This document shows, piece after piece, positions 3,240 to 56,963 of a stretch of DNA of 64,000 nt (position 1 is its first letter; the number at the start of each line of letters is the position of its first letter). Position numbers and translations under genes: made by a program. This stretch comes from Candidatus Yanofskybacteria bacterium (lineage in GTDB: Bacteria > Patescibacteriota > Minisyncoccia > 2-02-FULL-40-12 > IGHO2-01-FULL-4-A). Where the stretch lies: NCBI GenBank assembly GCA_016185545.1, contig JACPNJ010000001.1, positions 22,565 through 86,564 on the forward strand, in the 5' to 3' direction. Below the pieces are notes generated by a model that saw only the letters and a program-made list of their open reading frames with translations, searched no databases and was not told the DNA's origin.

Positions 3240-3364
3240 GGTTCTCTCCCGATTATTTTTTAAAGTTCTGTATTATTATATTATGTATTAATCCAAGGAT
3301 AAATTACTCCTAACCGCAAATTTTGTAAAGCACACCCGCTGCTTGTATTGTATGATATCGTGCT

Positions 3365-3410
3365 GTACGACATCGCAAGTCGTGCAATTGCACGACTTGC
3401 GATGTCGTAC
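3365..3410. promoter_or_regulatory. 46-bp perfect palindrome (GTACGACATCGCAAGTCGTGCAATTGCACGACTTGCGATGTCGTAC), putative operator upstream of the HAD-ECH gene
   Basis: Exact reverse-complement symmetry read directly from the sequence. Flanked by further GCTGTACGAC / GTCGTACAGC arms (3358-3425). No T-run follows, so it does not look like a simple terminator. Confidence 0.45.
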
Positions 3411-3510
3411 ATGTCGTACAGCGTGTCGTGCAGGTTGCAAACTTATGCTCAATAGATGTGGTGGTGAAGTTAGTTTTGTAATAAAAAATCAGGATAAAAT
3501 CCTGATTGAT

Positions 3511-20646: not shown

Positions 20647-20743
20647 TTGGACTGTTGCACTAATTAAAACAAAACTCCATGCCATACGGCATGGAGTTTT
20701 GTTTTTGCTGAGTTAATATTTATATTAAACTAATCTTCTCCAT

Positions 20744-21971: not shown

Positions 21972-22664
21972 ATGCAAAAGGTAACTCTACAAGCGGAGAC
22001 GAGAAGTATAATCGGCAGACAGGTGAAGTCGCTAAGACGGCAGGGTTTTGTGCCAGCGGTGGTCTATGGGCACGAATTTAAGCCATTATCTATTCAAGTG
22101 CCGTTGAAGGATTTTGAGCGTGTTTACGCTGAAGCGGGGGAGTCAACGGTGGTTTACCTGAATGTTAACGGGCAAGACCATCCTACCATTATCCATGATA
22201 TTGTTCGCGATGCGCTAAGCGATAAGTTCTTGCACGCCGATTTTTACAAAGTACGATTGGACGAGAAAATAAGCGCCAAAATTCAACTTAATTTTATAGG
22301 CGAATCGCCGGCGGTTAAGGGTCTGGGCGGCATCTTAGTTAAAAACATATCAGAAATTGAAGTTGAAGGTTTTCCGCAGGATTTACCGCACCAGATTGAT
22401 GTTGATATTTCCGGCATGGCCGAGCTCAGAAGCCACATTCAAATCAAGGACCTGCCAATCTCAACCAAGCTTGAGGTTAAGGCCGAACCGGAAGCAATCA
22501 TAGCCCTTATTCAGGAGCCGATATCCGAAGAAGAATTAAAAGCCCAGCTTGAAACTCCAGCCGCGGCCGCGCCGGAAGATGTTGAGGTTATCAAGAAAGA
22601 GAAGCCTGAGGAGGAAGTCGCCGAAGAAACACCTGCCACTCCAGCCGAAAAACCAGAAAAATAG
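21972..22664 (+). CDS. rplY: 50S ribosomal protein L25 / general stress protein Ctc
   Basis: 'LQAETRSIIGRQVKSLRRQGFVPAVVYG' bL25 N-terminus, with an acidic C-terminal extension. Confidence 0.8.
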   Translation: MQKVTLQAETRSIIGRQVKSLRRQGFVPAVVYGHEFKPLSIQVPLKDFERVYAEAGESTVVYLNVNGQDHPTIIHDIVRDALSDKFLHADFYKVRLDEKISAKIQLNFIGESPAVKGLGGILVKNISEIEVEGFPQDLPHQIDVDISGMAELRSHIQIKDLPISTKLEVKAEPEAIIALIQEPISEEELKAQLETPAAAAPEDVEVIKKEKPEEEVAEETPATPAEKPEK

Positions 22665-22962
22665 CGCTCATCCCCTGCCAATTTTTATCAGGTGTCCTCG
22701 CAGTACAAATAATATGTTGATTTTCTCGTTTTTCTGTCAGGCGAAGTTTCTTGTGGGCGGTGCTTTAGCCCGCCCATAGAATCTCCTCTGATAAAAAAAT
22801 CGTACCCCTTACGCTCACCCAGCCCCACTTTTATTCTAAAAGTGGGGCTGGGTTCGCTCCGTCCCAATTTTCTTTATCAGCGAAAAACTTCAAAAATCAA
22901 CATTTATTTGTTACTACTCAAGCCAATTGATAAAAATTGACAGGGGCTCGCTCTAGTCTAAA
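22665..22962. mobile_element. MITE-like repeat family A, copy 1 (about 295 bp, TIR CCCCTGCCAATTTTTATCA, internal hairpin CCCAGCCCCACTTTT...AAAAGTGGGGCTGGG)
   Basis: Near-identical to 55015-55262 except for a 53-bp internal insertion and a different but still self-complementary central hairpin. The two ends are inverted repeats of each other. Confidence 0.5.
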
Positions 22963-23116
22963 ATTCAGCTTTTTCAAGTTTTTTATGCAAGATGTCTTGT
23001 CAGAATACCACACGCTATTGACACGCTATAGGTCTATATGCTAACCTATTTTTGATGCTAGGGAGTCTAAAAAGCTCCGGCAGGTTGATCTTTTACAATT
23101 GACTACGGAGGGGATA

Positions 23117-23794
23117 ATGAAAATAAAACATAATAGCGGAAGATATGAGTTAGTTGATAGAAATTCAAAAAAGTTTTGGGAAGCAACTTGGAAAGATAAA
23201 AAGGTAACCGTTCGCTTCGGGAGAATAGGAACGGTTGGACAAACTTTACGAAAAACTTTTTTTAATGACGTGTCTGCTAATAGTTATTTTCACGACAAAA
23301 TTGAGGAAAAATGTCGAAAAGGATATAAGCTTGTAGGCACTGCGACTTATCCTCAAAGTGATTCCAATTCCCTGGTAATCTGCCATTCATATGTTGGGGA
23401 GCATACTGAGGAGGTAGCCAAGGGATTATGTCGGTGGCTTACGAAATGTTTAAAGAAAAAAATGCCCGTCATAGAGTTCGAGAAGATTTGGATGGAATTC
23501 AGGGAAAACGATGAAGGAGCAAAAGCAGTTCCCGGCTTTACGATTGTATATGGAGAAAAAGAATACTGGTCAGATAATCTTGATTTTTCAGAAGACCTTG
23601 TTCTCGACAGTATATACAAAAAAGCCGTAGAGAAGGGGGCGGACAGGTTCATCACCTTCAACAGCAATGGTTTTACCGATATTGTGGCAATACGCGGAAA
23701 ACCGACGCCACGGGAAATTGCCACCTTGGTTCTGGGTTCAGAAGAAAATGCTAGATATCAGATCGAAGAAGACGTGACTGGTGTATTAAGTTAA
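23117..23794 (+). CDS. WGR-domain protein (hypothetical)
   Basis: N-terminal 'KFWEATWKDKKVTVRFGRIGTVGQTLRKTF' is a WGR signature (W-G-R with conserved spacing). GGAGGGG RBS before the ATG at 23117. C-terminal 150 aa are unassigned. Confidence 0.5.
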   Translation: MKIKHNSGRYELVDRNSKKFWEATWKDKKVTVRFGRIGTVGQTLRKTFFNDVSANSYFHDKIEEKCRKGYKLVGTATYPQSDSNSLVICHSYVGEHTEEVAKGLCRWLTKCLKKKMPVIEFEKIWMEFRENDEGAKAVPGFTIVYGEKEYWSDNLDFSEDLVLDSIYKKAVEKGADRFITFNSNGFTDIVAIRGKPTPREIATLVLGSEENARYQIEEDVTGVLS

Positions 23795-23819
23795 AATATT
23801 TCTAACAATTAGGTCGAGC

Positions 23820-23843
23820 AGAGCGAAGAATCGCTCTTTTTTA
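23820..23843 (+). terminator. rho-independent terminator after the WGR gene
   Basis: AGAGCGA-AGAA-TCGCTCT hairpin plus T6. A second hairpin (CCCAGCCGTAGTTTT...AAACTACGGCTGGG) lies at 23901-23935. Confidence 0.45.
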
Positions 23844-23964
23844 TTTGTTTGTCCGCACACAGCGAATCGAGTCCTATCAAAAATTACAAACCCTAATCCC
23901 AGCCGTAGTTTTAGCAAAAACTACGGCTGGGTGATTTTTATCACTTCGATAATGAATTACTGCT

Positions 23965-24135
23965 AAAAATTAGAGCGAGGCCATTATGCCTCATAGCACC
24001 GTCAAAAGAGTGGATTGCACGGTTTGCGAGCAGTACAATAGTAAAGCACTGCGAGCAAAATCCACGCTTTTGACGGAATGCAGAATTCTCGCTGGGAATT
24101 CAAATGGTGATAGGAGGCATAATGGCGAGCGGATA
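23965..24135. mobile_element. MITE-like repeat family B, copy 1 (about 170 bp, TIR GCGAGGCCATTATGCC / GGCATAATGGCGAGC, long internal hairpin)
   Basis: Second copy at 53378-53548 with the same termini and the internal CCGTCAAAAGAGTGGATT / AATCCACGCTTTTGACGG inverted pair. Confidence 0.5.
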
Positions 24136-24152
24136 ATTTTTGATGGGGCGAA

Positions 24153-26170: not shown

Positions 26171-26356
26171 TTATAGCAAACCCAAATATTATGTCAATTG
26201 TTTGTGGATAACCAAAATACTGAGAATAACTCGGTTTTTTTACTCCCAGGGGGTGGGGAATTAAAAGACAAAGTGTTAGATATTTTTGGAAATTTCTGGA
26301 GTTTCTATAAATAAGCTCTAGAAATGAGCCATAGCAATAACTGATGCCTTTCTTTA

Positions 26357-27160
26357 CTTAGAGGCTCAGCCTCTAAGTAACCAACAACTTACAATTTTTG
26401 CCGAGACACCTCGGCTTTTATTTTACTTTCGCCGCACAGGTTACTTAGAGGTTGAGCCTCTAAGTAACCTGTGCTATAAGTTTAATCTATGAGAAAACTT
26501 CAATTTGAAAATGGAGAGTTTTATCACATATACAACCGGGGCAACAATAAAAGGCCTATTTTTATGAAATCTTTTGATTTGCAGAGATTTTTGCAAAGTA
26601 TGATTGAATTCAATGTAGATGGACCAATCGGAAGTATTTATGCCGTTTCTTTCAACAAAGAATCACTTAGAGGCTCAGCCTCTAAGTCGAGACGACCAGT
26701 TGATATTGTTTGTTATTGCCTAAATCCTAACCATTTTCATCTTTTAGTTAGACAGTTGGAAAACGATGGAATTAAGAATTTTATGCATAAATTAGGAACT
26801 GGATATACAATGTATTTTAATAATAAACACGAATTGAACGGTGGACTTTTTCAGGGGAGATATAAAGCAATTCACATAGATACAAATGATTATCTGTTGT
26901 ATTTAAGCGCTTATATCAATTTAAATCCTGAAGCCCATCAACTTAGAGGCTCAGCCTCTAAGTTGTGCCAATCAAGTTGGAATGAATATATCGGTGATAA
27001 ATCTAGCAAGGGTAAATTGTGCAATACCAGGATTGTATTGTCGCAGTTTGAAACCGTGGAGGGTTATAAAAAATTTGCCGAAAAGGCGCTCGGGGTGATT
27101 ATAGAGAAAAAAGAGATGGAAGAATCCCTGAAGCTTTTACTTAGAGGCTGAGCCTCTAAG
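26357..27160. repeat. REP-like 21-bp palindrome CTTAGAGGCT(C/G)AGCCTCTAAG, five copies (26357-26377, 26444-26464, 26666-26686, 26942-26962, 27140-27160)
   Basis: Exact or 1-mismatch copies read from the sequence. Copies 3 and 4 lie in frame inside the RAYT ORF (LRGSASK). Copy 5 contains the ORF's TGA stop. Confidence 0.7.
26489..27151 (+). CDS. REP-associated tyrosine transposase (RAYT) / IS200-like HuH Y1 transposase
   Basis: 'GEFYHIYNRGNNKRPIF' N-terminal RAYT motif, HuH motif 'NHFHLLV' and catalytic tyrosine context 'GGLFQGRYKA'. Confidence 0.75.
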   Translation: MRKLQFENGEFYHIYNRGNNKRPIFMKSFDLQRFLQSMIEFNVDGPIGSIYAVSFNKESLRGSASKSRRPVDIVCYCLNPNHFHLLVRQLENDGIKNFMHKLGTGYTMYFNNKHELNGGLFQGRYKAIHIDTNDYLLYLSAYINLNPEAHQLRGSASKLCQSSWNEYIGDKSSKGKLCNTRIVLSQFETVEGYKKFAEKALGVIIEKKEMEESLKLLLRG

Positions 27161-27294
27161 TGGCTATGGGCGCTTGCTTGGCGCTTTAAATTTTGTTATT
27201 ATTCTCAGCATGTCAGAAGTTAGTAGTACAACCCCGTTAGATATTTACGTTGTTAAGCAAACTAACGAGGTTAAATCGGGCATATTGTTAATTT

Positions 27295-29290: not shown

Positions 29291-29374
29291 GGGGTGTACT
29301 CAAGCAGTCAACGAGGGCAGACTGTAAATCTGCTGGCCTTGTGCCTACGTAGGTGCAAATCCTACCGCCCCCAC
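29291..29374 (+). tRNA. tRNA-Tyr (anticodon GTA), long variable arm
   Basis: Acceptor GGGGGTG/CGCCCCC, anticodon stem-loop GCAGA-CTGTAAA-TCTGC and a long variable arm. The T-loop TGCAAAT is atypical (G at position 55). Confidence 0.7.
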
Positions 29375-29526
29375 AATTAGAGCAAGCCAATTGATTGGCT
29401 TGCGGGTAGGATTTGCAGGGCGCAGCTATGTTTCGCGAGTATTTGGCGAGCGAAACAGCGAGCAGCGGCCTGCGACCGCGAGGCCGGAAGGCCGAGCGAG
29501 TCGTAGGACAATCCTACCGCCCCCAC
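29375..29526. repeat. GC-rich ~130-bp insert after tRNA-Tyr ending in a direct repeat of the tRNA-Tyr T-arm/acceptor 3' end
   Basis: 29494-29526 'GTAGGACAATCCTACCGCCCCCA' repeats tRNA 3' end 'GTAGGTGCAAATCCTACCGCCCCCA'. The insert starts with a perfect hairpin GCAAGCCAAT-TG-ATTGGCTTGC and an inverted copy GGGTAGGATTTGCA. Local GC is far above the genome background. Confidence 0.4.
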
Positions 29527-29814: not shown

Positions 29815-29974
29815 CCACTCGCCATAGTACCCCTTGGGAACTTCAAAAATCCCAGCGAGATTTTTTCATCTTTTGTGATTGCCGCCATTTGTCAAGACAC
29901 TCACTTCGTTCGGTCATTGACAAAACCATGCTGGCGGCAACCCCAGAAGTCCCAAAAGGCACTATGGCTCGCTC
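29815..29974. mobile_element. MITE-like repeat family C (about 160 bp, TIR CCATAGTGCCTTTTGGGACTTC / GAAGTTCCCAAAAGGTACTATGG), inverted copy
   Basis: The reverse complement is about 90% identical to 55418-55579. Located between rpmG and tRNA-Trp. Confidence 0.5.
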
Positions 29975-29997
29975 TTGTTACCAGTAGTAATTAGACT

Positions 29998-34471: not shown

Positions 34472-34865
34472 GATTTAGTTGTCAGTTATCAGCAAAAATT
34501 TAGCTGCAAACTGCAAACTTAGATTTCTTTATTAACCTCCCTCACCATATTAAAGCTTATTGAACTTTAATATTAACACCATATCTTTTACTAAAAAATC
34601 AATCAATGTGGATAACTTGCTTGTGTAATCGGCAGTCGCAAGCCGCCAATCGTTAATAACGCGGAGCCCCGACCTTGTCGGGGCTCCGCAGAACGTGCCC
34701 GCATTCCAAAAATTCGGAAAGCGGACTCTCATATCATATTGCACCCAGAACTAAAACCAAAAATAATGCGAATACTATAAAATATGTCAACTTGACTATA
34801 AAATTGTATTTACTAAAATTTTATCTAGCTTTGATAGCTTTGTGGGGTTGACCGTTGGGTAAATT

Positions 34866-39715: not shown

Positions 39716-40090
39716 GTGAATAAAGACGATTTTATAAAACAAGTCGAATCTATGACAGTAGTTGAGCTTAATGATCTAGTGAAAGCGCTGGAGGAAAAGT
39801 TTGGAGTATCGGCTGCGGCTATGGCCGCGCCGGCAGCCGGAGCAGCTAGCGGGGAAGAGGCCGGTCCGTCAGAAGAAAAAGATTCTTTTAATGTAATTCT
39901 TCAAAGCGCCGGTGAACAGAAAATACAGGTTATCAAAGTGATCCGTGAGATAACCGGTAAGGGTCTCAAAGAATCCAAAGATTTGGTTGATGGTGCTCCG
40001 CAAACGGTAAAAGAAGGTGTGAAGAAAGAGGAAGCTGATGAACTTAAAAAGAAATTGGAGGATGCGGGCGCGACAGTAGAACTCAAGTAA
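39716..40090 (+). CDS. rplL: 50S ribosomal protein L7/L12
   Basis: '[31 protein letters not shown]', Ala-rich hinge and C-terminal '[22 protein letters not shown]'. GTG start at 39716 with an AGGAG RBS 7 nt upstream. Confidence 0.85.
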
Positions 40091-40120
40091 TCAAAAACCG
40101 GCCATGCGGCCGGTTTTTGA

Positions 40121-42163
40121 TTACTTGAGTGTCCAGATTTTGTTGTCCGTGGATAGAATCCAAACCGTGCCGTCGGAGGAGACGGATATATCTTGAGGTG
40201 TGCCGACAGCTTCTAGTTTATAAGTTGTTTTAAGTTCGCCTGTTGTTTTATCAAAAATATAAACTCTTTTGTTTGTCTTATCGGCCAGAAAGAGGAAAGC
40301 CGAGTCCTTGAAAGTGAAAATGCGGCTGTCTGACGCAGGAATAAGCCGCAAATCCAATTCGCCGGTTTTTTTGCCCTTAAAGTATAATATCAGTTTGCCA
40401 TTGTCCGCAAGCGCGTAAATATTGCCGTCAGCGGTTATGGATGTCAGATTACCGCTTGCATTGTCGCTGGTCCAGATTGTACGCTTCGTTCCGCCAGTTA
40501 CTGCGTCGGCATATTTATATATTGTTTTATCGGAAAGAATATAAAGATTATTTTCGTATAAGATAGCGTCTATAGCGGATACCGGTTCTTTAAGAGTGTA
40601 CTGCTCAATTTTTTTGGATTTCAAATCATAGATGCCGAAGGCGTCAGAACCGTTGAAGACGGAGGCAAATGATGATGAAGTATATAGAAATTGTGGTGTA
40701 ATCTTGAATTGGCCTAACTGTGAAACTTCATTTTGATTGACATTGAAAATTAGGCCAATAATATCGATTATGCTGATAAGACCGTCATAAGCTGACACGA
40801 AACTAACCTTGAGATTGCTGTTTTGAGCCGATATGTCCGCGAAAAGCGTTGGTTGTTTATCGCTAACGCGATCAAGGTCATCCAAAGTTTGATTTATTTG
40901 TAATTTAATATTTTCGGCTTTTTTGTCTGAAAAACTGGCTAAACTTGCCAAGGATGCCTGAAGCAGTGTCCGAGCGTCTTTAAAATTGCTTTGGTTAAGC
41001 CATGATTGCGCCAGTTTAACATTTTCGCCTGCTTGTTTTATGGTGTTCCTGTTTTCATTTGAAATTCCTCCGGTTTTCCATAAAACAAAAATTAAAACGG
41101 GAAAAATAATGATCGCGGAAACTAGAATAAAACCACGCCGGCGCGCGCGTTCTCCCAATTTGCCAGTAGAAATCAGTTTACGGAGACCTTTTATAACCGG
41201 AGTTAAAATCGTTTCTCTTTTACTTACTAAAAATTCAGCGGGTATAATACGTGATTGTTCCATTTCTGGACTTTCCGGGCCGGTTCCTTGGTCCGCGACC
41301 GTAATTTCGGGTATTTGATCAGGGACATCTTGGGGTTTGCCGCTATTCAGTCTGATTTGAGACGGTTGTTTTGTATTCTGAGACTCTAGCGGAGCTTCCG
41401 GCTCCGTTTCCTTTTCCTTGTTGTCGTTTGGTGTCCTAGTTTTAAAAGTTGATTTGGTATAAGTTGCTGATGATACGGGTATTTCTTTAACCTCATGCAT
41501 ATCTATATGAACACCGCAGCAGGAAAAATTAGTTGTATTGGTAGCCAAATGTGCTATTTTTTGGCCAAATTCTTCCTGGTTTTCCTTGATGAAAATTCCA
41601 TTAAGTTGTTTTTCCCTTGATGTCAGCGACCTTGATGGAAAGTAAGCGAATATTTTGTCTTTTGACTGAACTTTACCGGAAATAATATTTGAAAACTGCT
41701 TTTCGCCCTCGGCATCCTTACTGAATAATTCAACATTATTGAGTATGTCTATATATTTACCGTTGCGAGCCAAGGCAATTTTGAATTTACCCAAACGCGA
41801 AATGTAAATATTTTCGCCTGAAATTGCGGCCAAGCCGATATTCAGTTTAAAATTATTGTTTTGGAAAAAATCATCCAAAACCTCATTAAGCTTTTTTAGA
41901 GTGCGCTCGAAAGCGCTTTTAGCATTTTGTTCCCGTAACGATATGTCTGAATAATATTCTCTTTTTGCCAAAGACGAAATTAAACTTATCGTGTAAGAAA
42001 GATCCTCTTGAGAATATTTGATGTGGCCCAAAACAAAGAGCGAGCCAAGCATTTTTTCCTGATTCCCGGCGCCTTGATATGCTAAAACATCAAAATGAAC
42101 ATTATCCTCGCCGCTTTTGTAGATAAGCTCTTTGATAGCAGGTTTTAAAGTAATTTTTTCCAT
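40121..42163 (-). CDS. membrane-anchored hypothetical protein with C-terminal beta-propeller-like repeats
   Basis: Cytoplasmic about 330-aa N-terminal domain, one TM helix ('FILVSAIIIFPVLIFVLW') and a C-terminal region of repeated 'DG.IY.L.D.K.I' strands (PQQ/WD-like). Confidence 0.4.
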   Translation of the reverse strand: MEKITLKPAIKELIYKSGEDNVHFDVLAYQGAGNQEKMLGSLFVLGHIKYSQEDLSYTISLISSLAKREYYSDISLREQNAKSAFERTLKKLNEVLDDFFQNNNFKLNIGLAAISGENIYISRLGKFKIALARNGKYIDILNNVELFSKDAEGEKQFSNIISGKVQSKDKIFAYFPSRSLTSREKQLNGIFIKENQEEFGQKIAHLATNTTNFSCCGVHIDMHEVKEIPVSSATYTKSTFKTRTPNDNKEKETEPEAPLESQNTKQPSQIRLNSGKPQDVPDQIPEITVADQGTGPESPEMEQSRIIPAEFLVSKRETILTPVIKGLRKLISTGKLGERARRRGFILVSAIIIFPVLIFVLWKTGGISNENRNTIKQAGENVKLAQSWLNQSNFKDARTLLQASLASLASFSDKKAENIKLQINQTLDDLDRVSDKQPTLFADISAQNSNLKVSFVSAYDGLISIIDIIGLIFNVNQNEVSQLGQFKITPQFLYTSSSFASVFNGSDAFGIYDLKSKKIEQYTLKEPVSAIDAILYENNLYILSDKTIYKYADAVTGGTKRTIWTSDNASGNLTSITADGNIYALADNGKLILYFKGKKTGELDLRLIPASDSRIFTFKDSAFLFLADKTNKRVYIFDKTTGELKTTYKLEAVGTPQDISVSSDGTVWILSTDNKIWTLK

Positions 42164-43153: not shown

Positions 43154-43228
43154 GGGCTCGTAGTTCAGGGGCAGAACGTCCGATTCACATTCGGAAGGTC
43201 AGAGGTTCAAATCCTCTCGAGCCCACCA
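43154..43228 (+). tRNA. tRNA-Val (anticodon CAC)
   Basis: Acceptor GGGCTCG/CGAGCCC, anticodon stem-loop TCCGA-TTCACAT-TCGGA, T-arm AGAGG-TTCAAAT-CCTCT, CCA encoded. Confidence 0.8.
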
Positions 43229-43265
43229 AAACAAATACGCCACCTAGGTGGCGTATTTGTTTTGG
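43229..43265 (+). terminator. rho-independent terminator after tRNA-Val
   Basis: AAACAAATACGCCACC-TAGG-TGGCGTATTTGTTT followed by TGG. Confidence 0.5.
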
Positions 43266-43618
43266 TGGTGATGTTGATAACTTGTATACATTAATTTTGG
43301 CTTTGTAAATGTAATTTCGGAAAATATGTTAAAAATCGGCTAGAATAGGCGATTTTTTGTGATTGTGTCAAATATAGAATTGACGCTAAAGTTATGCACA
43401 TTGCATAGTATTGCGGTACTGGAATTGGGTGGTATATAATGAAGGTAAAGTGTAAGAAAGTGGATAATAGTGTTAATAACTAAGGCAAATCGTTGATAAA
43501 CTTTCAAAAAGAATCCGGTACTGATATATTGGTTTGGTTGAATTATCGAAATGTTTGATAAGCCCACAATATTTCCCGCCATTTACACATATTCATGTAG
43601 TGTCAAAATTTTAGCCAT

Positions 43619-55417: not shown

Positions 55418-55579
55418 AGCAAAGCCATAGTGCCTTTTGGGACTTCTGGGGTTGCCGCCAGCATGGTTTTGTCAATGACCGAGTTAAGCGAGTGTCTTGA
55501 CAAATGGCGGCAATCACAAAAGATGAGCCGAGCTCGCTGGAGCGAGGCGAAGTTCCCAAAAGGTACTATGGCGAAGCGA
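55418..55579. mobile_element. MITE-like repeat family C, copy 2
   Basis: Matches the reverse complement of 29815-29974. Its right TIR overlaps the last codons of cysS. Confidence 0.5.
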
Positions 55580-56963
55580 GTTTTTTGACTAGCGGGCCGT
55601 AGTTGGTATCTTCAATCTCGTAGCCGAGGTTTTTTATTTGGTCGCGGAGTTGGTCGGAGTGGATGAAGTCCTTGGCTTGGCGAATGGTTTCGCGCTCGCT
55701 TATTAGTTTTTGTATCTCCGGCGGTATTTCTTGTGATTTTTTAGGAATGATACTGAGAATTTGATCAAATTCATTTAGCATTTCCAAAGATTTTTTTGCA
55801 TCTTCACTGCTGATTTTTCTTTCATCAATCAACGGATTTACTTCTCTTACAAAATCAAACAAAGACGCAATTGCTTTGGGAGTATTAAAATCATCATCCA
55901 TTTCTTTTTCAAAATTTTCCTTTATTTTTTCAATCAATTCCAACTTAGGAGTTGAACTCCTAAGTAGAGATTTTTCAATATTTTTTAGGCGATTAGTAAA
56001 TTCGGCTAAACGATTTACTGCTGCCTCGGTTTGTCTCAGGTTTTCTTCGCTGTAATCAATAGGAGAGCGATAATAAGCCATCAGTATCATCATGCGTAAA
56101 GCTTCGGCTGGATATTTTTTTAAGGCGTCGCGTATTGTTATGAAATTGCCTAGCGACTTGGACATTTTTTGGCCACTGACGGTTAAAAATCCAGGGTGTA
56201 TCCAGTATTTGACGAATGGTTTTTTGCCGGAAATTGATTCCATTTGGGCAATTTCGGCTTCATGGTGTGGAAATATCAGATCTTGTGCGCCGCCATGCAG
56301 GTCGTATTGGAAACCGAAATGTTTTTCAGTCATAGCGGTATCTTCAATGTGCCACCCTGGACGGCCATAGCCAAGCTCGCTATTCCAACCCGGTTCCTCC
56401 AGCTTAGAAAATTTCCACAAGGCAAAATCGCCGCGATTTCTTTTTTTTATGCTTTCATCAATGCGGCTGACTGCATCTTCCGCTGATTGTGTTGTCCGTC
56501 CCGACAGTTTGCCGTAATCAGGAAATTTGACCAGGTCAAAATAATAACCGTCATCTTCGATGAGATAGGCGATACCCTTTTCAATCAGTTGTTTTACTTG
56601 GCTAACAATTTCCGGAATATATTGAGTTGCCGGAGCGTATTCCGAAACCGCAGTGATGCCGAGGGATTTCATGTCCTCGTAATATGCTTCTTTATATTCC
56701 AGCGCTAAATCAGCCGGATTAATCATTTTTTGTTTGGCCCGCTCAATAATTTTATCGTCAATGTCGGTAATGTTTTGCAGATAAAAAACTTCGTAGCCGC
56801 GATGCCGCAGATATTTGGCGACAACGTCAAAAACAACATAGGTTCTGGCATGGCCTATGTGCGAATAATCATAAACCGTTGGTCCGCAGACGAACATCCT
56901 GACTTTTGAGCCGGGTGAGAGAAATTCTTCTTTTTGGCGAGCTAGAGTATTATAGATTTGCAT
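55566..56963 (-). CDS. cysS: cysteine--tRNA ligase
   Basis: 'CGPTVYDYSHIGHAR' HIGH motif, 'KMSKSLGN' and zinc-binding Cys. Confidence 0.9.
   Translation of the reverse strand: MQIYNTLARQKEEFLSPGSKVRMFVCGPTVYDYSHIGHARTYVVFDVVAKYLRHRGYEVFYLQNITDIDDKIIERAKQKMINPADLALEYKEAYYEDMKSLGITAVSEYAPATQYIPEIVSQVKQLIEKGIAYLIEDDGYYFDLVKFPDYGKLSGRTTQSAEDAVSRIDESIKKRNRGDFALWKFSKLEEPGWNSELGYGRPGWHIEDTAMTEKHFGFQYDLHGGAQDLIFPHHEAEIAQMESISGKKPFVKYWIHPGFLTVSGQKMSKSLGNFITIRDALKKYPAEALRMMILMAYYRSPIDYSEENLRQTEAAVNRLAEFTNRLKNIEKSLLRSSTPKLELIEKIKENFEKEMDDDFNTPKAIASLFDFVREVNPLIDERKISSEDAKKSLEMLNEFDQILSIIPKKSQEIPPEIQKLISERETIRQAKDFIHSDQLRDQIKNLGYEIEDTNYGPLVKKLASP

What the first reader, a model, noticed from the sequence alone, without database searches (positions are those of the whole stretch)
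22665..22962. MITE-like element family A with terminal inverted repeats and a central hairpin showing compensatory substitutions
22665-22962 and 55015-55262 share about 95% identical flanks. The TIR is CCCCTG(C/T)CAATTTTTATCA at both ends, with subterminal inverted blocks. The central hairpin differs completely in sequence yet is perfectly self-complementary in both copies: CCCAGCCCCACTTTT-ATTC-TAAAAGTGGGGCTGGG versus CTAAAACCCGTTTG-ATTA-CAAACGGGTTTTAG. Copy 1 also carries a 53-bp internal insertion. The preserved pairing with changed sequence suggests selection on structure (an RNA element or a modular hairpin cassette).
Basis: seen in the sequence. Interest (0 to 1): 0.6.

Follow-up and report, generated by a model that had tools for sequence, protein, structure and literature searches.

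The report
Two-copy fold-back repeat with swapped hairpin
A real but ordinary-looking small non-coding repeat (MITE-like, two copies) in a Candidatus Yanofskybacteria chromosome, whose differing central hairpins result from a block swap rather than from RNA-style compensatory evolution.

Summary
Two non-coding copies (22665-22953 and 55016-55250) share arms that are 94-100% identical and a 19-nt terminal inverted repeat. Copy 1 carries a 54-nt insertion. Each copy has a different, perfectly paired central hairpin. The whole unit is a long imperfect palindrome (DNA fold z = -12).

The host is a Candidatus Yanofskybacteria (CPR) chromosome. Both copies sit in intergenic hot spots that are short in the closest available relatives. 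Short-read contigs from five runs break inside the arms, as expected for a repeat.

I reject the "compensatory substitution" reading. The 33-34-nt centre is flanked by 28 and 63 nt of 100% identity, so it is a replaced block. The arms show no double compensatory change.

The two centres belong to two generic hairpin classes found elsewhere in this clade. A second repeat family shows the same hairpin swap at an orthologous site.

Best reading: a MITE/REPIN-like mobile or duplicative fold-back element with an exchangeable terminator-type hairpin.

Caveats:
- Only two copies are known.
- The target-site duplication is inconclusive.
- No partner transposase was found; the only candidate enzyme in the window is a RAYT-like Y1 gene.
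- Arm mismatches favour G·U pairing on the minus strand.
- The termini share motifs with a covarying RNA family, which keeps an RNA or single-stranded-DNA reading alive.

The parts
22665..22953 (.). Element A copy 1. It starts immediately after the rplY (L25) stop codon TAG at 22662-22664 and is 289 nt long including the 54-nt insertion.
   Evidence: The left boundary was fixed by comparison with relative L045.
22672..22690 (+). Copy 1 left terminal inverted repeat, CCCCTGCCAATTTTTATCA.
22736..22789 (+). 54-nt insertion specific to copy 1. It has its own small GC hairpin (TGGGCGG...CCGCCCA) and has no counterpart in copy 2 or in either right arm.
22817..22853 (.). Copy 1 central perfect hairpin (17 bp, loop TTC). 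It belongs to the class CCCAGCC-N4-TTTT-loop, also seen at 23898-23931 and at L055:2196-2231.
22928..22946 (-). Copy 1 right terminal inverted repeat (reverse complement CCCCTGTCAATTTTTATCA).
22937..22964 (+). Outward-facing promoter-like site TTGACA-16-TAAAAT (11 of 12 matches). The -35 hexamer lies in the right TIR and the -10 in the flank, pointing at the WGR-domain gene (ATG at 23117). This is a consensus match only.
55016..55250 (.). Element A copy 2 (235 nt). It lies between the conserved dnaB promoter block (TACTCACA..., left) and a conserved block downstream of cysS (right).
55023..55041 (+). Copy 2 left terminal inverted repeat, CCCCCGCCAATTTTTATCA.
55115..55150 (.). Copy 2 central perfect hairpin (16 bp, loop ATTA). 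It has an A-tract, a GC core and a T-tract, like the bidirectional-terminator-type hairpins at 20666, 40081, 43223, L043:8131 and L045:3487.
55225..55243 (-). Copy 2 right terminal inverted repeat, degenerate (reverse complement CCATTGCCAATTTTTATCT).

Best explanation
Element A is a lineage-specific, non-coding fold-back repeat in a Candidatus Yanofskybacteria (CPR) chromosome.

Anatomy: two arms of about 100 nt that are imperfect inverted copies of each other (about 77% identical), ending in a 19-nt terminal inverted repeat. They surround a central slot that holds a perfect 16-17-bp hairpin.

Most likely it is a non-autonomous mobile, or at least duplicative, DNA element of the MITE/REPIN kind. 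It landed in two intergenic hot spots: directly after the rplY stop codon, and between cysS and the dnaB promoter.

The differing central hairpins are an exchanged block. Each copy carries a hairpin from a different generic class of perfect hairpins that also occur on their own in these genomes.

Likely consequences for the host:
- The element supplies a strong stem-loop where the native terminators seen in relatives are missing or disrupted. Copy 2's centre looks like a bidirectional intrinsic terminator.
- Copy 1's right end may create an outward-facing promoter.

Shown here: the anatomy, the near-identity of the copies, absence from the orthologous intergenic regions of the nearest relatives, block replacement of the centre, and the absence of coding potential.

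Inferred: mobility, the enzyme responsible, and the terminator and promoter effects.
For: - Anatomy and significance of the repeat.
- No conserved ORF of 60 aa or more, and only generic hairpin hits in Rfam.
- Host identity: L25, DnaB and WGR homologues are named Candidatus Yanofskybacteria.
- rplY locus: in relative L045 (L25 94% identical), rplY is followed by a 44-nt terminator and then the convergent 179-aa gene. The window has 1.49 kb there.
- dnaB locus: in relative L053 (DnaB 95% identical), cysS and dnaB are 75 nt apart, against 599 nt in the window. Homology resumes exactly at A's left end.
- In both loci, A's left end abuts conserved host sequence at a TA dinucleotide.
- Short-read contigs from five runs break in the arms, as repeats do.
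- Block replacement: six of six both-side changes lie in the centre and none in the arms, and the flanks are 28/28 and 63/63 identical.
- The two centres fall into two hairpin classes that recur elsewhere.
- A second repeat family (TCAAAAATTACAAACC...TTTTTATC) shows the same swap of a perfect hairpin between conserved flanks at an orthologous site: window 51773-51806 against L051.
- The native rplY and cysS terminators seen in the relatives are absent or disrupted in the window.
- Outward promoter-like site.
Against: - Only two copies are known. An exact-pattern scan (the CAATTTTTATC...ATGTTGATTTT arm pattern) of 185,579 species genomes, JGI metagenomes and IMG/VR, BLAST against phage and plasmid records, and a profile search of about 90 kb fetched from relatives (among all loci held) found no further member.
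- No clean empty site exists. In both loci the right flank is other lineage-specific DNA.
- The target-site duplication is TA/TAG in copy 1 only. Copy 2 has TA on the left and CA on the right.
- No DDE transposase, integrase or reverse transcriptase occurs among 57 ORFs. The only candidate enzyme is a RAYT-like Y1 protein, and its own flanking palindromes do not resemble A.
- Arm mismatches are strand-biased: 6-7 are G·U-compatible on the minus strand against 0-1 on the plus strand. The minus-strand RNA is about 20 kcal/mol more stable. A double-stranded-DNA transposon model does not predict this.
- A's termini share AGAGCGAG(G)CC and GGCGAGYG motifs with a covarying RNA family.
Confidence: 0.5

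Rival explanations
1. Element A is a structured RNA gene or cis-acting RNA read from the minus strand. It would belong to the same lineage-specific group as the C and D modules, which share its 5' AGAGCGAG(G)CC leader and 3' GGCGAGYG trailer. The long hairpin would be the functional product, for example an RNase III substrate, an antisense RNA or a terminator RNA.
For: - Transition mismatches between the arms are G·U-compatible on the minus strand 6-7 times, against 0-1 on the plus strand.
- RNA MFE is -136.9 and -100.3 kcal/mol on the minus strand, against -114.2 and -80.4 on the plus strand.
- GC skew marks the plus strand as the leading strand, so replication-linked deamination bias predicts the opposite asymmetry.
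- All six one-sided differences between the copies that lie in predicted minus-strand pairs keep the pair through wobble.
- AGAGCGAG abuts the terminal helix of A1(-), C1(-) and D1(+), and GGCGAGYG follows the helix of A2(-), C1(-) and D1(+).
- D is a real covarying RNA, with 22 of 50 pairs compensated among three sequences.
Against: - There is no Rfam family match.
- The arms show no double compensatory change and carry 15-17 transversion mismatches.
- Minus-sense copy 1 is antisense to rplY, while minus-sense copy 2 runs in the same direction as cysS and dnaB.
- No promoter-like site was found upstream of the minus-sense unit at copy 1.
- The element is absent from the orthologous regions in relatives at 90-95% protein identity.
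- The two copies share their arms by descent, so the wobble bias is effectively a single observation.
Confidence: 0.2
2. Element A is not transposed at all. It would be a mosaic intergenic repeat built and spread by recombination, gene conversion and hairpin-templated replication errors (template switching) in hot spots next to terminators. Its perfect central palindrome would be created or renewed by intrastrand template switching.
For: - Both loci are hot spots that hold different cargo in every relative examined.
- The window is full of perfect 12-24-bp hairpins.
- The orthologous T-family hairpin differs between relatives but stays perfect, including a G:C to C:G flip between the window and L053.
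- Template switching is documented to create and perfect hairpins in one step (PMC8794818, found).
- Several families share short bracket motifs that could serve as microhomology.
Against: - Template switching copies nearby sequence, but neither central arm has a source elsewhere in the window at up to 2 mismatches.
- The replaced block has the same size (15-nt variable arms) and the same boundaries in both copies.
- This model does not explain how a 235-nt unit with defined inverted termini reached two loci 32 kb apart.
Confidence: 0.2
3. Element A is a plain one-off segmental duplication of an intergenic palindrome, and unrelated hairpins were later inserted into the centre.
For: - Only two copies were found.
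- Both copies are in the same orientation.
- Copy 2 has no target-site duplication.
Against: - The unit has sharply defined, inverted-repeat termini, and its left end abuts conserved host sequence at the same dinucleotide in both loci.
- Nothing outside the unit was co-duplicated.
- The genome carries several other TIR-bounded small repeat families.
Confidence: 0.1

Closest known systems
Correia elements (CREE) of Neisseria
   Same: Both are about 100-160-bp non-coding repeats with TIRs, are intergenic, fold into hairpins, and have length variants produced by an internal block. Correia elements are flanked by TA and can supply outward promoters and terminator-like stem-loops. (The Correia properties are from my own knowledge.)
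   Different: There is no sequence similarity. Correia elements occur in hundreds of copies with a consistent TA duplication, whereas here there are two copies and a TA/TAG duplication in one copy only. Correia elements have no exchangeable perfect central hairpin.
ERIC/IRU and BOX elements; BIMEs of enterobacteria (mosaic intergenic repeats)
   Same: All are imperfect-palindrome intergenic repeats built from modules. They have conserved ends, variable or inserted internal modules, and no known dedicated transposase for ERIC or BOX. (From my own knowledge.)
   Different: BOX varies by the copy number of one module (boxB), and ERIC varies by insertions at fixed sites. Here a perfect hairpin of constant size is replaced by an unrelated one. 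This element is in a CPR host and is very low in copy number.
REP/REPIN elements mobilised by RAYT (Y1/HUH) transposases
   Same: Both are strand-specific hairpin-forming repeats. A RAYT-like Y1 gene lies 3.5 kb away (26489-27151), flanked by its own palindromes. The G·T/G·U strand bias fits a single-strand substrate.
   Different: REP units are 20-40 nt, and REPINs are doublets of the palindrome that flanks the RAYT gene. A's arms of about 100 nt do not resemble ACTTAGAGGCTCAGCCTCTAAGT. The better-folding strand is the leading-strand template, not the lagging-strand template used by the IS200/IS605 family (family property from my own knowledge).
Integron attC sites
   Same: Both have conserved inverted outer boxes with a variable, palindromic centre. 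Both sit directly after gene ends, and folding is strand-specific.
   Different: There are no RYYYAAC/GTTRRRY core sites, no IntI integrase in the window, no cassette array, and the length is about twice the attC maximum.
Intrinsic (bidirectional) terminators
   Same: Copy 2's centre has the A-tract, GC core and T-tract architecture of the other extended terminator hairpins in this clade. Both copies sit where relatives have terminators.
   Different: Copy 1's centre has the GC-rich part at the base and no adjacent U-tract. Arms of about 100 nt are not part of any terminator.

Membership tests
MITE (non-autonomous DDE-transposon derivative) | Terminal inverted repeats | tested here: met
   The 19-nt TIR matches 18/19 in copy 1 and 16/19 in copy 2. 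An 18-nt probe overlapping the TIR hits four sites against 0.12 expected.
MITE (non-autonomous DDE-transposon derivative) | Small and non-coding | tested here: met
   The copies are 235 and 289 nt. No ORF is shared by both copies, and all ORFs within copy 2 are shorter than 35 aa.
MITE (non-autonomous DDE-transposon derivative) | Target-site duplication of fixed length at every copy | tested here: inconclusive
   Copy 1 is flanked by TA(G) on both sides. Copy 2 has TA on the left and CA on the right. With free choice of boundary, the copy-1 match is not significant.
MITE (non-autonomous DDE-transposon derivative) | Many dispersed copies, with insertion polymorphism (filled versus empty sites) | tested here: inconclusive
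   There are two copies in 64 kb. Contig breaks show at least two copies in five runs. Relatives lack the element at both loci, but the sites are not clean empty sites. No copy was found elsewhere.
MITE (non-autonomous DDE-transposon derivative) | Cognate autonomous element with the same TIRs | tested here: not met
   There is no DDE transposase among 57 ORFs of the window, and no other occurrence of the TIR. The rest of the genome could not be searched.
REP/REPIN-RAYT system | RAYT (Y1 HUH) gene in the genome | tested here: met
   The ORF at 26489-27151 matches PF01797 Y1_Tnp at 32.9 bits (cut-off 23). Its best NCBIfam hit is REP_Tyr_transpos at 31.4 bits, below the cut-off of 80. HUH-like (HFH) and GRY motifs are visible in the translation.
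REP/REPIN-RAYT system | The repeat is the palindrome that flanks the RAYT gene, or an inverted doublet of it | tested here: not met
   The palindromes flanking the RAYT gene are ACTTAGAGGCTCAGCCTCTAAGT. A shares no similarity with them.
Known structured RNA family (Rfam) | Match to a curated covariance model | tested here: not met
   There is no hit at gathering score. At E<5 the only hits are to miRNA, snoRNA and sRNA models, far below their gathering scores and taken as chance.
Structured RNA under selection (generic) | Independent compensatory changes spread over the helices | tested here: not met
   No arm pair has both sides changed. All six such pairs lie in one replaced block bounded by 100% identical flanks. 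Two sequences give little statistical power.
Integron attC | R''/L''...L'/R' core sites and an IntI integrase nearby | tested here: not met
   No GTTRRRY-type cores are visible at the ends. No integrase was found in the window.
Intrinsic terminator | GC-rich stem followed by a U-tract | tested here: inconclusive
   Copy 2's centre has its T-run inside the 3' arm (GGGTTTTAGTT), like other extended terminators in the window. Copy 1's centre is followed by TTCGCTCC. The consensus scan lists neither centre as a terminator.

The most novel reading that the evidence does not exclude
Families A, C and D may be one undescribed class of hairpin or structured-RNA-bearing modules in CPR bacteria.
- They would be bracketed by 5'-(T)TAG-AGAGCGAG ... 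GGCGAGYG-3' on the strand that tolerates G·U or G·T pairs.
- They would insert at gene 3' ends or into terminator hairpins.
- They would carry exchangeable perfect hairpin cassettes.
- They might be mobilised as single strands by the RAYT-like Y1 enzyme encoded at 26489-27151.

If so, the swapped centre of A would be the visible trace of a hairpin-targeted insertion or replacement mechanism.
Probability: 0.12. Interest if true: 0.7.

Novelty: new member of a known kind. Interest (0 to 1): 0.38.

Why it matters
If the best reading holds, this is a new small fold-back repeat in a CPR genome. My two literature searches for MITEs in this group found nothing relevant. It is useful for annotation and explains why short-read assemblies break here, but it is not surprising.

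The more valuable lesson is methodological. A perfect hairpin that differs completely between near-identical copies is a block swap, and it should not be scored as RNA covariation.

The wider pattern could matter more if a full genome confirms it. That pattern has three parts:
- perfect hairpins replaced inside conserved flanks in two unrelated repeat families;
- bracket motifs shared with a genuinely covarying RNA family;
- a RAYT-like gene riddled with its own palindromes.

Together these hint at an active hairpin-based turnover of intergenic DNA in these reduced genomes.

Tried and rejected
- **More copies.** I used the arm pattern CAATTTTTATC-N20-30-ATGTTGATTTT, which hits all four arms locally. 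It gave 15 hits in genome contigs, 23 in metagenome contigs and 3 in viral contigs, each a single match. BLAST and nhmmer showed none is a family member. L001 (Jorgensenbacteria, E=0.006) is biased by the selection pattern and lacks a second arm.
- **Phage and plasmid records.** No match.
- **Spurious-ORF look-up** in the 15-billion-protein collection. Nothing found.
- **Same-strain contigs.** They all end inside the arms, and the contig extending past the window's end adds only 565 nt with no copy.
- **WGR gene as cargo of A.** Rejected. A 60%-identical homologue (L064) has no A-like sequence nearby.
- **attL/attR of an island.** Rejected. The 32 kb between the copies is housekeeping: RF, S2, EF-Ts, tRNAs, L33, L10, L7/L12, the mraZ-mur genes, L21, recR and dnaB.
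- **Central hairpins as the native terminators of rplY and cysS.** Rejected. The terminators in L045 and L053 have different sequences.
- **Two independent insertions flanking a resident hairpin.** Rejected. Left and right arms differ consistently (77% identical), while left-left and right-right comparisons give 94-100%.
- **A weak hit at L043:9492-9534.** It lies inside an ORF and is chance.
- **CGCTC at all four module borders of copy 1.** This was noted post hoc. The 5-mer is not enriched in the window (90 observed against 86 expected), so I give it little weight on its own.

Full report
**1. The observation**

- The two copies share three collinear blocks: 64 nt at 97%, 28 nt at 100% (the start of a 51-nt block that runs on into the differing hairpin), and 97 nt at 94%.
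- Copy 1 has 54 nt (22736-22789) where copy 2 has one base.
- The 33-34 nt at the centre differ, yet each forms a perfect hairpin: 17 bp with a 3-nt loop at 22817-22853, and 16 bp with a 4-nt loop at 55115-55150.
- The terminal inverted repeat CCCCTG(C/T)CAATTTTTATCA is present at both ends of copy 1 (18/19) and in degenerate form in copy 2 (16/19).
- An 18-nt probe overlapping the TIR (GCCAATTTTTATCAGGTG) occurs only at these four places, against 0.12 expected.
- Left and right arms align as inverted copies over about 100 nt at about 77% identity.
- Each unit folds as one long imperfect hairpin with z about -12.3.

The element is real rather than an assembly artefact. Logan contigs from five independent runs reproduce the outer ends of copy 1. 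They stop 42-43 nt into the left arm or start inside the right arm, about one k-mer from the nearest base that distinguishes the copies. This is the behaviour expected of a repeat.

**2. Context**

The window is chromosomal DNA of a Candidatus Yanofskybacteria (CPR/Patescibacteria) bacterium. The best L25, DnaB and WGR homologues carry that name.

- Copy 1 starts at the base after the rplY (L25) stop codon and is followed by a WGR-domain gene.
- Copy 2 lies between cysS and dnaB, both on the minus strand.
- No Rfam family matches either copy. Only weak, sub-threshold hits appear, mostly to miRNA-precursor hairpin models.
- The copies share no ORF.

**3. Relatives**

- In L045 (L25 94% identical), rplY is followed by a 44-nt bidirectional terminator and then the convergent 179-aa gene. 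The window has 1.49 kb there: element A, the WGR gene, two hairpins and a structured module that I call D.
- In L053 (DnaB 95% identical), cysS and dnaB are 75 nt apart. The window has 599 nt: a second small repeat family (C), about 160 nt that includes a block conserved in other relatives, and element A.
- Other relatives carry two or three small genes, or a D module, in the same slot upstream of the conserved dnaB promoter block TACTCACA....

Both copies therefore sit in insertion hot spots. In both loci A's left end abuts conserved host sequence exactly at a TA dinucleotide. A's right end abuts other lineage-specific DNA in both loci, so there is no clean empty site.

A TA or TAG direct repeat flanks copy 1 but not copy 2. 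I treat the target-site duplication as inconclusive.

**4. Copy number**

The window holds only these two copies.

- A pattern that hits all four arms gave only single chance matches in 185,579 species genomes, the JGI metagenome set and IMG/VR. BLAST and an arm-profile nhmmer search confirmed that none is a family member.
- About 90 kb fetched from relatives at 90-95% protein identity contains none.
- Phage and plasmid records contain none.

**5. The central hairpin**

RNAalifold on the two copies finds six pairs in which both sides changed and the pair is kept. All six lie in the central hairpin, and none lies in the arms.

The centre is bounded by 28 nt (left) and 63 nt (right) of 100% identity. 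A divergence of about 4% in the arms cannot coexist with near-saturation in a 33-nt block through point substitutions. The block was replaced as a unit.

The two centres belong to different hairpin classes that also occur on their own in this clade.
- Copy 1's CCCAGCC-CCAC-TTTT... matches the pattern of 23898-23931 (CCCAGCC-GTAG-TTTT...) and L055:2196-2231 (CCCAGC-ACTA-TTTTT...).
- Copy 2's A-tract/GC-core/T-tract hairpin has the architecture of the extended bidirectional terminators at 20666, 40081, 43223, L043:8131 and L045:3487.

A second, unrelated repeat family (TCAAAAATTACAAACC ... hairpin ... TTTTTATC) shows the same thing at an orthologous site. The window has GCCCCTCCCCAGTTT.., L053 has CCCCCTCCCCAGTTT.. 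and L051 has GCCGAT-ACCA-ATCGGC, all perfect and all between conserved flanks.

The centre of A is thus a slot filled by generic hairpins. Hairpin replacement inside conserved flanks appears to be a property of these genomes, not a special feature of A. The central hairpins are not the native terminators of rplY or cysS as seen in the relatives.

**6. Evidence that keeps a single-strand (RNA or ssDNA) reading alive**

- Transition mismatches between the arms are G·U-compatible on the minus strand 6-7 times and on the plus strand 0-1 times. The minus-strand RNA fold is about 20 kcal/mol more stable in both copies.
- GC skew marks the plus strand as the leading strand, so replication-linked C-to-T bias would predict the opposite asymmetry.
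- In minus-sense orientation, A begins with AGAGCGAG-CC and ends with GGCGAGCG (copy 2) or GAGCG (copy 1). The same 8-mers abut the terminal helices of families C and D.
- D is a genuinely covarying structured RNA-like module, with 22 of 50 pairs compensated among three sequences and no Rfam match.

Against an RNA gene:
- The arms carry 15-17 transversion mismatches and no double compensatory change.
- The two copies have opposite orientation relative to local transcription.
- No promoter-like site precedes the minus-sense unit at copy 1.
- The two copies share their arms by descent, so the wobble bias counts as roughly one observation.

**7. Enzymes**

Pfam scans of 57 ORFs found no DDE transposase, integrase or reverse transcriptase.

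The only mobile-element enzyme is a RAYT-like Y1/HUH protein at 26489-27151. It matches Y1_Tnp at 32.9 bits, and its best NCBIfam hit is the REP-associated tyrosine transposase model, below cut-off. Copies of the palindrome ACTTAGAGGCTCAGCCTCTAAGT flank this gene and interrupt it in frame. These palindromes do not resemble A, so A is not a REP or REPIN of this enzyme by the usual definition.

**8. Verdict**

The most economical reading is a new, very low-copy fold-back repeat of the MITE/REPIN/mosaic-repeat kind, with an exchangeable terminator-type hairpin in the centre.

Probable by-products are a stem-loop substituting for lost native terminators and, at copy 1, an outward promoter-like site (TTGACA-16-TAAAAT).

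My confidence is about 0.5, because copy number, target-site duplication and a partner enzyme remain unresolved. The rivals are:
- a minus-strand structured RNA related to families C and D (0.2);
- a recombination or template-switch mosaic without transposition (0.2; mechanism documented in PMC8794818, found);
- a plain duplication (0.1).

The "compensatory substitutions imply selection on structure" argument does not.

Noticed in passing
window 26340-27180: The ORF at 26489-27151 is a RAYT-like Y1/HUH transposase (PF01797 32.9 bits; best NCBIfam hit is REP-associated tyrosine transposase, below cut-off). Five copies of the perfect palindrome ACTTAGAGGCTCAGCCTCTAAGT sit around and inside it: two upstream (26356, 26443), two inside the ORF and in frame (26665 and 26941, encoding LRGSASK), and one at its stop (27139). 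A diverged copy, ACTTAGGAGTTGAACTCCTAAGT, lies inside cysS at 55943-55965.
   Followed up: partly
window 23970-24135 and 53383-53547; L044:1523-1661; L055:3633-3800: Family D is a structured RNA-like module of about 165 nt with strong covariation: 22 of 50 pairs are compensated among three sequences. It has no Rfam match. It occupies different intergenic slots in different relatives. A hairpin loop CUCGCU is complementary to the 5' leader AGCGAG, which suggests a possible pseudoknot; that is my reading of the sequence and was not tested.
   Followed up: partly
window 29819-29970, 55423-55574 (inverted), 53345-53370 with 53544-53576: Family C is a small repeat with 24-nt inverted termini GCCATAGTRCCYTTTGGGAMCTTC. 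Two copies are 92% identical. One follows the rpmG (L33) stop codon. The other overlaps the end of cysS and supplies its last codons and stop; compared with L053, it appears to sit in the loop of the native cysS terminator. A third pair of these termini brackets the D module at 53383-53547. C shares an xxxTCGCTGGxxx hairpin with D.
   Followed up: partly
window 51545-51827; 23877-23947; L053:4120-4345; L051:~466: Family T is a 283-nt unit with inverted ends TCAAAAATTACAAACC and a GC-rich, highly paired core. It is conserved next to rplU in relatives and has no Rfam hit. A solo end plus hairpin lies at 23877-23947. The perfect hairpin next to the end is replaced between relatives.
   Followed up: partly
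window 22945-22954(-), 29966-29975(-), 23972-23981(+); 55017-55024(-), 29816-29823(-), 24124-24131(+): Families A, C and D share a 5' motif AGAGCGAG(G)CC directly abutting the terminal helix and a 3' motif GGCGAGYG directly after it. In each case the motifs lie on the strand where helix mismatches are G·U-compatible. The 5' motif is often preceded by TTAG or CTAG.
   Followed up: partly
window 29358-29526: The 17-nt 3' end of tRNA-Tyr (AATCCTACCGCCCCCAC) is repeated about 150 nt downstream. The two copies bracket a GC-rich segment, which resembles the footprint of an element integrated into the tRNA gene.
   Followed up: no
window 3364-3411, 20666-20705, 40081-40130, 43223-43268, 34661-34689, 53223-53250: The window has many perfect 12-24-bp hairpins with loops of 0-4 nt. 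Most have an A-tract, GC core and T-tract architecture and sit between genes or after tRNA genes. They are probably extended bidirectional terminators typical of this clade.
   Followed up: partly
window 22665-24152 and 54967-55565, compared with L045, L044, L053, L055 and L051: The rplY/179-aa-gene spacer and the cysS/dnaB spacer are insertion hot spots. Across relatives at 90-95% protein identity they hold nothing, small repeats, D modules, a WGR-domain gene, or two to three small genes.
   Followed up: partly
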